Of a DNA stretch of 64,000 bases, positions 53,772 through 55,012 are shown in pieces. Source of the stretch: Escherichia coli (GTDB lineage Bacteria; Pseudomonadota; Gammaproteobacteria; Enterobacterales; Enterobacteriaceae); NCBI RefSeq assembly GCF_050920415.1, contig NZ_CP169309.1; one strand, given 5' to 3'. The position numbers and the translations under genes are program-made. The notes below the pieces were generated by a model. The model had not been told where the DNA came from and did no database searches. It saw only the letters and a list, made by a program, of their open reading frames with translations. Positions within the stretch are counted from its first letter, which is position 1. Each line of letters starts with the position of its first letter.

Positions 53772-54053
53772 TATGTATTAGCTTAGATGTGAGCTGACAC
53801 ATCTATGCTTAGATGCCAAACCTAATCTGAGCGTCCACTCTTTACCAAGAGCGGACGTTACCAATGACCATATGACATGAATCGATAAGATCAAAACATT
53901 ATCGCCAAGAAATGTCATACCATTGATACAAATAAAATTGATTACCCCCTTACTCTTGTTGAAAAGTTAGTCGTAGAGTACCTATCGCAATGTAATCAGC
54001 TTTAATCATCTGAAAATTACTCCTTAAAAATTAGCTTTTATATACTGAACAAA

Positions 54054-54773
54054 TTAAATCTCTGTTTCTTTTCCTGCTCGGCTCAACCAATACTCCATTG
54101 TTTGAGTATGAATCTTTTCAGCGTATATTTTATCAATTAATTTATCTTGTTTTTCTTTAATGACTTCACGCAGTGAATCATATAACATAAAAAAACGTTC
54201 ATCATCTTCCTCATTATTACCGTAATTTATTTGATTGAGCTCTGAAAAAATATGATAGTACCTTTTTTTCTTGGTCCCCGGCAATATTAAAACCAAGCCA
54301 CATTGATCATATTCGAATTCACCTTTATGGGCAGCAAAGTTATGTCTAACATTCATAATAGAATCATGTAAATCTCTATATTTTTCTGGCACATGCTTTC
54401 TCTGCAATGTGAATCGACGCCCTTTCGCCTCTGTAAAACACTTACCGTAAGTAACAACTTTTGATATAAACAAAGACTTTAATATTAGATTCTTTTCTAA
54501 ATCCGGATAAATAAAGTGTTGTTCTTTATTAATGTTATTACAAATATTTTTTATTATATTCTCCCAACCAATAACATTCCGAAGATCTTTATCAAGCAAC
54601 TGTAAGGCCACATATTGTTCTACAAAGCGGCCTTTTAAAGGTATTCGTGGTAATATTACACCTTTCTGCTTATAAATTCTTTCTATCGTATTATCTGGAT
54701 ATTGGATCTTCCTTATTTCTATTCCGTCTTCTTCTGATACCCTTACTAATGGTTCATTTTTTAACTTTGACAT
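54054..54773 (-). CDS. hypothetical 239-aa protein with R-x5-H (HEPN-like) motif; candidate abortive-infection/defence gene
   Basis: Low GC (~30%); ...NVRHNFAAHKGE... (R-H-NxxAH); lies in the xis-int hotspot; own ttgaca promoter and aagaggg RBS. Confidence 0.6.
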   Translation of the reverse strand: MSKLKNEPLVRVSEEDGIEIRKIQYPDNTIERIYKQKGVILPRIPLKGRFVEQYVALQLLDKDLRNVIGWENIIKNICNNINKEQHFIYPDLEKNLILKSLFISKVVTYGKCFTEAKGRRFTLQRKHVPEKYRDLHDSIMNVRHNFAAHKGEFEYDQCGLVLILPGTKKKRYYHIFSELNQINYGNNEEDDERFFMLYDSLREVIKEKQDKLIDKIYAEKIHTQTMEYWLSRAGKETEI

Positions 54774-55012
54774 GTTAACCCTCTTAAATAAAAAACTAAC
54801 TTTATCCAGATAGTGTCCGTTAAGAAGTTTTCGTTACAACTAAGTTTCTAGGTAAATCATGAATCGACCTATAGTATCAAAAACATTTGGTGGTAAACAT
54901 CTGCATTTATCAAATGGCAGGAGCGATTTAGGGGCATAGGGATAGTGATGATATCGATACCCGCCCCCTCTTATGTCAACACAATGGCGTAAACTTAACG
55001 CTCACATCTCGC

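What the first reader, a model, noticed from the sequence alone, without database searches (positions are those of the whole stretch)
53772..55012. Low-GC 239-aa gene with HEPN-like R-x5-H motif in the xis-int hotspot: candidate single-gene anti-phage system
The 54054-54773 gene has ~30% GC, far below its neighbours, with its own ttgaca promoter and strong RBS. It sits exactly in the integrase-proximal position where lambdoid prophages usually carry defence cargo. The protein is Lys/Glu/Ile-rich and contains VRHNFAAHKGE (R-H-NxxAH), which resembles the HEPN RNase catalytic motif used by Abi proteins. No recognisable partner gene was found. A palindrome (gatgtgagctgacacatc, 53786-53803) flanked by direct gcttagatg repeats follows xis.
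Basis: partly seen in the sequence, partly recalled or inferred. Interest (0 to 1): 0.75.

Follow-up and report, generated by a model that had tools for sequence, protein, structure and literature searches.

The report
Solo HEPN-like prophage defence candidate
A foreign-looking 239-residue gene sits alone in a prophage slot where sister prophages carry proven anti-phage genes; it most likely encodes a latent RNA-cutting suicide enzyme, but this is a computational prediction that a 2026 machine-learning screen had already made and nobody has tested.

Summary
The gene is real. It spans 54054-54773 on the minus strand, encodes 239 aa, has 31% GC and shows dN/dS of 0.10-0.18. It is E. coli WP_000040218.1, annotated "hypothetical", and has no Pfam, NCBIfam or PADLOC match.

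The hotspot claim holds. About 699 E. coli genomes carry the same integrase next to yjjG. The xis-int slot is a swappable cassette that holds Dsr1, an anti-phage dGTPase, a dCTP deaminase, unknown genes, or this gene (about 69 genomes).

Homologues form a large unnamed family of about 924 clusters at 50% identity. They are always about 230-250 aa and apparently solo. They occur beside att sites of lambdoid and P2-like prophages, on a conjugative element, in a Vibrio inovirus and as Vibrio superintegron cassettes.

Two AlphaFold models (pLDDT 86 and 92) give a four-helix bundle. The invariant Arg and near-invariant His of R-x5-H lie at the end of helix 3, which is the HEPN hallmark position. 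However, no sequence profile links the family to any HEPN family, and structural matches are no better than generic helical bundles.

DefensePredictor (Science 2026, Table S10) already lists this exact protein as a predicted novel defence gene; it is not among the 94 units they tested.

Verdict: a plausible solo HEPN-type abortive-infection nuclease. Moderate interest.

The parts
54054..54773 (-). ORF239 (WP_000040218.1), 239 aa. It is a candidate solo defence nuclease. The predicted structure has an N-terminal 3-stranded beta element (residues 9-36) and a four-helix core (49-79, 92-111, 130-148, 188-221). There is a loop insert at 112-129 and a beta-hairpin at 157-180.
   Evidence: dN/dS 0.10-0.18; about 69 of 5426 E. 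coli genomes hold most of the ORF; an IS1 splits one copy and one is fragmented
54327..54347 (-). Codons for R143-H-N-F-A-A-H149, the R-x5-H motif at the C-terminal end of predicted helix 3. It is the putative catalytic centre.
   Evidence: R143 is invariant and H149, A148 and G151 are at least 90% conserved in 72 and 78 diverse homologues. Position in the models. HEPN description.
54779..54785 (-). Shine-Dalgarno AAGAGGG, 5 nt upstream of the ATG.
   Evidence: conserved in Cronobacter (AAGAGGA)
54774..54930 (-). A 157-nt leader that moves together with the ORF between different prophage backbones. It is the presumed 5'UTR or promoter region, but no convincing sigma-70 site was found.
   Evidence: DNA homology with the Cronobacter sakazakii prophage copy spans window 54046-54930 only. 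The promoter scan was negative.
54974..54979 (-). It is probably not this gene's promoter.
   Evidence: The best -10 is at 20-nt spacing, the scan did not report it, and it lies outside the portable unit.
53857..55066 (.). Swappable cargo cassette of the xis-int slot. The right junction is sharp at 55066-55072, inside the last ~18 codons of int. The left junction is ragged, at 53767-53856.
   Evidence: blastn of the window against 9 related prophage loci that carry other cargo, or the same cargo
53780..53809 (.). Palindrome or hairpin just after the xis stop, with flanking GCTTAGATG direct repeats. It belongs to the conserved xis trailer and left junction zone, not to the cargo gene.
   Evidence: Conserved with xis in Stx, cdtI and other phages out to about 53841. 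Homology breakpoints at 53783 and 53803 fall inside it.
53833..53856 (.). Second strong hairpin (GUCCACUCUU/AAGAGCGGAC) lying between the convergent xis and ORF239 genes. It has no U-tract and its role is unknown; it could be a convergent-transcription buffer or a junction.
53577..53771 (+). xis (excisionase/HTH, 64 aa), convergent with ORF239.
55013..56269 (-). Tyrosine integrase, co-directional with ORF239 and immediately upstream of it. In this strain it is extended to 418 aa by a 13-nt deletion at the cassette junction.

Best explanation
ORF239 is stand-alone anti-phage cargo of temperate phages and other mobile elements.

Proposed mechanism:
- It encodes a divergent, previously unclassified HEPN-type metal-independent endoribonuclease, made in the lysogen but kept inactive.
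- Infection by another phage activates it. The trigger is unknown; by analogy with HepS and Tha it would be a phage structural protein, possibly sensed through the family-specific beta elements.
- Two R-x5-H sites are then brought together in a dimer or oligomer and cut tRNA or other RNA. Translation stops and the infection aborts.

Shown here:
- The gene is real, horizontally acquired and under purifying selection.
- It occupies a cassette slot that otherwise holds validated defence genes.
- Its family is large, has a fixed size, is partnerless in most contexts and is borne on mobile elements.
- The predicted fold is a four-helix bundle with the conserved Arg/His at the HEPN position.

Inferred only: RNase chemistry, oligomeric activation, the trigger, abortive infection, and expression in the lysogen. 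The expression inference rests on co-orientation directly 3' of int here, and on overlap with int in the cI-int lysogenic operon of P2/186-like prophages.
For: Gene and origin:
- ORF, GC 0.31 and dN/dS 0.10-0.18.

Hotspot:
- About 699 genomes share the integrase and about 69 carry this gene.
- The slot holds Dsr1, dGTPase or dCTP deaminase in 4 of 8 sampled alternatives.
- Cassette junctions are defined.

Family and context:
- 924 clusters with E <= 1e-3, lengths about 230-250 aa, none with a Pfam domain or a name.
- Directly after or overlapping int in P2/186-like prophages of Enterobacter, Yersinia and Citrobacter. A 2026 study calls this int-att position a minor P2 defence hotspot.
- At the tail-fibre/umuDC end of Cronobacter prophages and next to lambda-type int/Exc.
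- On a conjugative element beside a Schlafen/AlbA_2 ATPase and in a Vibrio inovirus.
- As single-ORF superintegron cassettes in Vibrio.

Structure and motif:
- AF2 pLDDT 86.5 (pTM 0.75) for ORF239 and 92.5 (pTM 0.87) for a 21%-identical homologue, with the same topology.
[quoted passage not shown] H or N follows the Arg, and there is a helix-2/3 insert. This is exactly as HEPN is described in PMC3710099.
- D63, Y109, R119, H136 and R143 are invariant.
- The only recurrent weak Pfam hit is HEPN_AbiU2 (4 of 72), and AbiU2 also uses R-x5-H.

Independent prediction and precedent:
- DefensePredictor Table S10 gives log-odds 9.62 and the label 'Predicted novel defense gene'.
- HepS (PMC13043305) is a precedent for a partnerless prophage HEPN abortive-infection protein.
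Against: - No profile-level homology to any HEPN family. Pfam, PADLOC and NCBIfam are negative for the protein, for 72 members and for the family consensus.
- PDB profile searches are empty.
- hhalign against an AbiU2 sequence and an AbiU2 alignment gives probabilities of 0.5% and 0.2%.
- DefensePredictor's own HHblits column shows no known-defence homologue.
- Foldseek against PDB and BFVD finds nothing.
- The models' coordinates could not be inspected, so clustering of the conserved residues is not verified.
- No experimental phenotype exists. About 45% of the DefensePredictor units that were tested validated.
- No promoter was identified.
Confidence: 0.5

Rival explanations
1. It is a defence gene but not a HEPN RNase. 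The conserved D63/Y109/R119/H136/R143/H149 constellation on a helical bundle would form a different active or ligand-binding site, for example one that acts on nucleotides, NAD or DNA, or binds a metal. Alternatively the protein is a sensor or decoy that blocks a phage step without killing the cell.
For: - Context and machine-learning evidence for defence.
- Complete lack of HEPN profile similarity.
- Four invariant residues (D63, Y109, R119, H136) are not part of the canonical HEPN signature.
- A depositor's pipeline labelled the Vibrio inovirus homologue 'endonuclease'.
- Neighbouring cassette occupants act on nucleotide pools.
Against: - The Arg/His pair, its spacing, the following polar residue and its helix-3-end position match HEPN specifically.
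Confidence: 0.2
2. It is a non-defence accessory gene (moron). It could be an anti-defence or host-takeover factor used by the phage itself, a lysogenic-conversion or fitness factor, or a regulator of prophage maintenance linked to int.
For: - att-proximal regions also carry virulence and fitness morons (Gifsy-1 gogB next to attP).
- There is tight linkage to int, including overlapping reading frames, in P2-like prophages.
- There are no experimental data.
- More than half of the tested DefensePredictor candidates gave no phenotype.
Against: - The gene is rare and patchy within otherwise near-identical prophages, so it is not a core integration factor.
- It is exchanged for known defence genes at the same junctions.
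- It also occurs without any integrase, as an integron cassette and on a conjugative element.
Confidence: 0.17
3. It is the toxin of an addiction or toxin-antitoxin module whose antitoxin is an unannotated small ORF or RNA in the co-travelling 157-nt leader or in the 3' flank. It would stabilise the element rather than, or as well as, defending it.
For: - A leader of about 157 nt travels with the gene.
- Vibrio copies sit among TA cassettes.
- The 3' flank is strongly structured.
Against: - In P2-like prophages the ORF overlaps int, so there is no room for an upstream partner.
- The leader is no better conserved than the coding sequence.
- There is no Rfam hit.
- The structured 3' elements belong to the xis module.
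Confidence: 0.08

Closest known systems
HepS (Gifsy-1 prophage STM14_3211; Sargen et al., Nature 2026, PMC13043305)
   Same: Both are single proteins of fewer than 250 aa encoded by a lambdoid prophage, with no co-occurring partner or inhibitor. Both were recognised as HEPN only through a structure prediction plus an R-x-H motif. HepS is the model for how ORF239 may work: a latent oligomeric nuclease, triggered by phage tail-tip protein, that cleaves tRNA anticodon loops and causes abortive infection.
   Different: - No detectable sequence relationship (PDB profile searches are empty).
- HepS has R-x4-H (R100-H105) and ORF239 has R-x5-H.
[quoted passage not shown]
- ORF239 has extra beta elements (residues 9-36 and 157-180).
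- ORF239 has no experimental data.
HEPN_AbiU2 (PF18734; lactococcal AbiU2-type abortive-infection HEPN domain)
   Same: It is the only Pfam family hit recurrently, though weakly, by family members (4 of 72). It uses the same R-x5-H spacing with Ala-His (RNKRIAH against RHNFAAH). It is also found as a Vibrio integron cassette in the same arrays.
   Different: hhalign probability is only 0.2-0.5%. The family consensus does not hit the model. AbiU2 lacks the N-terminal beta element and the hairpin.
HepT/HEPN toxins of MNT-HEPN type VII TA systems (PDB 7ae2, 5yep) and YutE/DUF86 (1ylm)
Integron-cassette HEPN protein Vpc_cass2 (PDB 3jrt)
   Different: No sequence similarity. It is smaller (166 aa) and of unknown function.
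Cargo of prophage defence hotspots (P2 int-att, P2/P4 cos-proximal hotspots; Rousset 2022, PMC9122126; PMC13586616)
   Same: The logic is the same: a conserved backbone, sharp junctions and rapidly swapped defence cassettes. The P2-like homologues sit in the int-att hotspot described there.
   Different: Here the slot lies between convergent xis and int genes of a yjjG-integrating lambdoid family. I did not find it described in the papers searched.

Membership tests
HEPN superfamily (Anantharaman et al. 2013) | Core four-helix up-down bundle | tested here: met
HEPN superfamily (Anantharaman et al. 2013) | [quoted passage not shown] | tested here: met
   R143 is invariant and H149 is at least 90% conserved. 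Helix 3 ends at residue 148, or at 144 with H146 in P0136. The residue after Arg is H, or N in P0074. Criterion text.
HEPN superfamily (Anantharaman et al. 2013) | [quoted passage not shown] | tested here: met
   The loop at 112-129 carries the conserved G118-R119.
HEPN superfamily (Anantharaman et al. 2013) | Detectable profile similarity to at least one recognised HEPN family (Pfam clan KNTase_C or PDB HEPN chains) | tested here: not met
   Pfam hmmscan of the protein, 72 members and the consensus is negative. PDB profile searches are empty. hhalign against AbiU2 gives 0.2-0.5%. HHpred against full databases could not be run.
HEPN superfamily (Anantharaman et al. 2013) | Structural similarity to solved HEPN domains above the generic helical-bundle background | tested here: inconclusive
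HEPN superfamily (Anantharaman et al. 2013) | Metal-independent endoRNase activity from a composite dimer active site | not testable with these tools
   Needs biochemistry or a multimer structure.
HEPN_AbiU2 (PF18734) | Score above the Pfam gathering threshold (26.8 bits) | tested here: not met
   ORF239 has no hit. Four of 72 relatives hit at E 0.036-10. A true AbiU2 cassette scores 74.6 bits.
HepS-type solo prophage HEPN abortive-infection proteins | Prophage-encoded, fewer than 250 aa, no conserved partner gene | tested here: met
HepS-type solo prophage HEPN abortive-infection proteins | Sequence homology to HepS | tested here: not met
   No PDB chain matched at E <= 10 with the family profiles. 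The motif spacing differs. LT2 Gifsy-1 lacks hepS, so a direct alignment could not be made.
HepS-type solo prophage HEPN abortive-infection proteins | Activation by phage tail-tip protein, tRNA anticodon cleavage and abortive-infection phenotype | not testable with these tools
   Experimental.
Anti-phage defence system (operational definition) | Occupies a variable locus that carries validated defence systems in related elements | tested here: met
   Dsr1, dGTPase and dCTP deaminase occupy the same junction-defined slot.
Anti-phage defence system (operational definition) | Recognised by homology-based defence annotation | tested here: not met
   PADLOC-DB v2 gives no hit for the protein or its family. 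The machine-learning tool DefensePredictor does flag it.
Anti-phage defence system (operational definition) | Reduces phage plating when expressed | not testable with these tools
   It is not among the 94 units tested in PMC13092281 Table S6.

The most novel reading that the evidence does not exclude
The family is not a HEPN RNase at all. Its invariant D63/Y109/R119/H136/R143 (+H149) constellation, on a helical bundle fused to a small beta module, would be a new type of single-protein sensor-effector with a non-RNA target. It would be spread as a one-gene cassette through prophage att-proximal slots, inoviruses, conjugative elements and integrons across Gammaproteobacteria and beyond.
Probability: 0.12. 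Interest if true: 0.75.

Novelty: new variant of a known kind. Interest (0 to 1): 0.42.

Why it matters
- If validated, this would add an unclassified family of about 900 clusters to the short list of self-contained, single-protein HEPN abortive-infection systems; HepS is the only well-dissected prophage example.
- Its family-specific beta module is a candidate sensor, so the family offers a compact system for asking how one polypeptide both senses a phage and kills the cell.
- The analysis also defines a concrete, junction-delimited defence hotspot in a common E. coli prophage family: the xis-int slot of the yjjG-integrating lambdoids, present in about 13% of complete genomes. At least three further unknown cargo types in that slot are ready-made defence candidates.
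- The practical novelty is limited. The exact protein is already in a published list of predicted defence genes, and the concept of solo HEPN cargo in prophage hotspots is established.

Tried and rejected
- Pfam, NCBIfam and PADLOC scans of the protein gave nothing. PHROGs gave only phrog_8440, of unknown function.
- Pfam and PADLOC scans of 72 family members, and a Pfam scan of the family consensus plus 8 divergent members, gave no family-level hit. The weak AbiU2 lead (4 of 72) was not reproduced by the consensus.
- PDB sequence-profile searches with A1 and A2 gave only noise: bacterioferritin, RFC and a P450.
- Foldseek against PDB and BFVD gave nothing significant. AFDB50 was not available.
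- hhalign of the family against an AbiU2 cassette and a 4-sequence AbiU2 alignment gave probabilities of 0.5% and 0.2%. A genome scan for more AbiU2 relatives found none.
- I tried to obtain HepS from Gifsy-1 (NC_010392) for a direct comparison. The LT2 prophage lacks it.
- The supplement of the HEPN survey held no alignments.
- An Rfam scan of 53400-56700 gave no credible RNA.
- The promoter and terminator scan found no minus-strand promoter upstream of the ORF and no terminator after it. A hand-found TGaTACTAT extended -10 (54879-54871) is not conserved in Cronobacter, so I dropped it.
- I considered the palindrome as part of the gene's system and rejected that. It is conserved with xis in phages that lack the gene.
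- Literature searches for the accession and for int-proximal HEPN genes found no characterisation. Motif strings are absent from the validated DefensePredictor proteins.

Full report
OBSERVATION

The ORF is present at 54054-54773 on the minus strand and encodes 239 aa. Its GC is 0.31 and its GC3 is 0.26, against 0.44-0.52 in the flanking prophage genes and at least 0.5 in the adjacent host genes. An AAGAGGG Shine-Dalgarno lies 5 nt before the ATG.

The peptide VRHNFAAHKGE covers residues 142-152. The 111 nt after xis fold much better than shuffled sequence, with z = -5.0.

The claimed promoter is not supported. TTGACA is at 54979-54974, but the only good -10 is 20 nt away. The promoter scan reports nothing on that strand. 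The hexamer also lies outside the DNA that moves with the gene.

WHERE IT IS

The window is 100% identical to E. coli MFDS1022581, and the protein is WP_000040218.1, annotated 'hypothetical protein'. The gene lies in a lambdoid prophage inserted beside yjjG. The order from the host side is attachment junction, int (55013-56269, minus), ORF239 (minus), then xis (53577-53771, plus, convergent).

The same arrangement occurs in Escherichia phage Lambda_2H10, genus Glaedevirus.

THE SLOT IS A DEFENCE HOTSPOT

About 699 of 5426 complete E. coli genomes carry this integrase at this site. About 69 of them carry the ORF.

I sampled eight genomes that have the integrase but not the ORF. The slot held:
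- Dsr1, twice;
- a dGTPase, with a PADLOC match of 8.7e-105;
- an anti-phage dCTP deaminase, with a PADLOC match of 9.9e-165;
- a 413-aa unknown protein, twice;
- a 436-aa plus 81-aa pair of unknowns;
- a 160-aa plus 150-aa pair of unknowns.

Pairwise alignment places the right junction sharply at 55066-55072. That is inside the last ~18 codons of int. The left junction is ragged, at 53767-53856, just past xis. It is conserved together with xis in phages that lack the ORF, so it belongs to the backbone and not to the cargo.

THE GENE IS A PORTABLE, SOLO UNIT

A Cronobacter sakazakii prophage carries an 86%-identical copy at its other end: tail fibre, umuDC, ORF, then host DNA. DNA homology there is confined to window 54046-54930, which is the ORF plus a 157-nt leader.

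Homologues at about 40% identity in Enterobacter, Yersinia and Citrobacter, plus a further metagenomic contig of unknown host, lie immediately after the integrase of P2/186-like prophages, or overlap it. They are the last gene before host DNA. From established P2/186 biology, int is co-transcribed there with the immunity repressor, so such a gene would be expressed in the lysogen. A 2026 survey lists the P2 int-att interval as a minor defence hotspot.

Other members occur:
- next to a lambda-type int/Exc pair;
- on a conjugative element beside a Schlafen/AlbA_2 ATPase and an SNase;
- in a Vibrio inovirus, where the depositor's note reads 'endonuclease';
- as single-ORF cassettes in Vibrio superintegrons, among TA and acetyltransferase cassettes.

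No partner gene is shared across these contexts. One Acinetobacter copy ends a four-gene cluster of unknown proteins.

The gene is under purifying selection, with dN/dS 0.10-0.18. Most of the 70 E. coli copies found are intact. The listed exceptions are one copy split by an IS1 and one fragmented copy.

THE FAMILY

An exhaustive profile search finds 924 clusters at 50% identity with E <= 1e-3, and 397 with E <= 1e-10. Nearly all listed members are 220-260 aa. Members come from Enterobacterales, Vibrio, Aeromonas, Pseudomonas, Acinetobacter, Alteromonas, Gallionella and a Caldilineaceae MAG. All are 'hypothetical', and none has a precomputed Pfam domain.

Across 72-78 diverse members, D63, Y109, R119, H136 and R143 are invariant. 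W70, K111, F113, G118, A148, H149 and G151 are at least 90% conserved.

IS IT HEPN?

Evidence for:
- AlphaFold2 models of ORF239 (pLDDT 86.5, pTM 0.75) and of a 21%-identical relative (pLDDT 92.5, pTM 0.87) give the same architecture. It comprises a small N-terminal beta element, helix 1, helix 2, an 18-residue insert, helix 3, a beta-hairpin and a long helix 4.
[quoted passage not shown] It also says the residue after Arg is usually N, D or H, and that inserts between helices 2 and 3 are typical. All three features are met.
- The only recurrent weak Pfam hit among members is HEPN_AbiU2, whose motif RNKRIAH has the same R-x5-H spacing.

Evidence against:
- Every sequence-profile test failed.
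- Foldseek found nothing.

I therefore treat 'works like a HEPN nuclease' as the leading hypothesis. I treat 'member of the HEPN superfamily' as unproven, and 'member of AbiU2' as rejected.

PRIOR ART

DefensePredictor (DeWeirdt, Mahoney and Laub, Science 2026, PMC13092281) lists this exact accession in Table S10. The mean log-odds is 9.62 against a cut-off of 4, the label is 'Predicted novel defense gene', and the HHblits column for known-defence homologues is blank.

The protein is not in Table S6, which lists the 94 tested units. Its motif strings are absent from the validated proteins. Of the tested units, 45% validated overall, and the rate rose with score.

HepS of Gifsy-1 (PMC13043305) shows that a partnerless prophage HEPN protein can both sense a phage, through its tail-tip protein, and execute abortive infection by tRNA cleavage. 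It is unrelated in sequence to ORF239.

MECHANISM AND CONFIDENCE

My best explanation, at confidence 0.5, is a latent, solo HEPN-type RNase acting as an abortive-infection effector and sensor. The rivals are:
- defence by a different chemistry (0.2);
- a non-defence moron (0.17);
- a TA or addiction toxin with a hidden antitoxin (0.08).

A spurious or dead gene is essentially excluded by the conservation and the dN/dS values.

VERDICT

The HEPN call remains a structure-and-motif inference, and the defence prediction has already been published without validation.

I class this as a new variant of a known kind: a new sequence family with extra beta modules doing what solo HEPN abortive-infection proteins do. 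Interest is 0.42.

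Noticed in passing
window 55067 (int 3' end; int ORF 55013-56269): This strain has a 13-nt deletion (TACTATCTCTGAT) exactly at the cassette's right junction. It removes the normal int stop codon and extends the integrase from 407 to 418 aa. Phage 2H10 and other ORF239 carriers lack the deletion.
   Followed up: partly
L003:2554-3795 (IHE3034; the P13-6 protein in L021 is a different accession); L006:2267-3815; L005:2898-3874: Other strains carry unknown cargo in the same xis-int slot: a 413-aa protein, a 436-aa plus 81-aa pair, and a 160-aa plus 150-aa pair. 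None has a Pfam or PADLOC hit. They are further defence candidates by position.
   Followed up: partly
window 55066-55072 and 53767-53856: Cassette exchange uses a sharp right junction inside the last ~18 codons of int and a ragged left junction in the structured xis trailer. That trailer has hairpins at 53780-53809 and 53833-53856, neither with a U-tract. The exchange mechanism is unknown.
   Followed up: partly
L030, L031, L034-L036 (Vibrio chromosomes): Vibrio homologues are single-ORF superintegron cassettes. One array (L035) also contains a true HEPN_AbiU2 cassette (4513-5082; 74.6 bits) and an SRA/ScoMcrA-like gene.
   Followed up: partly
L032:5773-8735 (Acinetobacter baumannii): Here the homologue is the last gene of a tightly packed, same-strand cluster of four genes. 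The other three (368, 149 and 220 aa) have no Pfam domain. This may be a multi-gene version of the system.
   Followed up: no
L028:5902-6639 (Vibrio inovirus PQ189351.1): A 28%-identical homologue is accessory cargo of a filamentous (Tubulavirales) prophage. It lies after the zot-like gene, and the depositor's note reads 'endonuclease'.
   Followed up: no
hits H30 and H39 (IS1 in the xis-int stretch of the query; in H30 it lies between xis and the intact ORF), H98, H123: IS1 elements have landed in the cassette. In DETEC-S792 (H39 = H98) the IS1 lies within the ORF's span. One further genome (bR_120_Kylling) has a split copy. The other listed copies cover the whole ORF.
   Followed up: partly
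window 53168-53327: A 160-nt segment inside the DUF551-like gene (52798-53577) is present here but absent from phage 2H10 and two other prophages. RefSeq annotates this region as pseudogene fragments, although a 259-aa ORF is open in the window.
   Followed up: no
window 49450-49900: A second low-GC patch (0.29-0.30) lies next to the LexA-family repressor (ymfK-like). It holds a 69-aa hypothetical gene and about 850 nt of unannotated sequence, and may be another moron.
   Followed up: no
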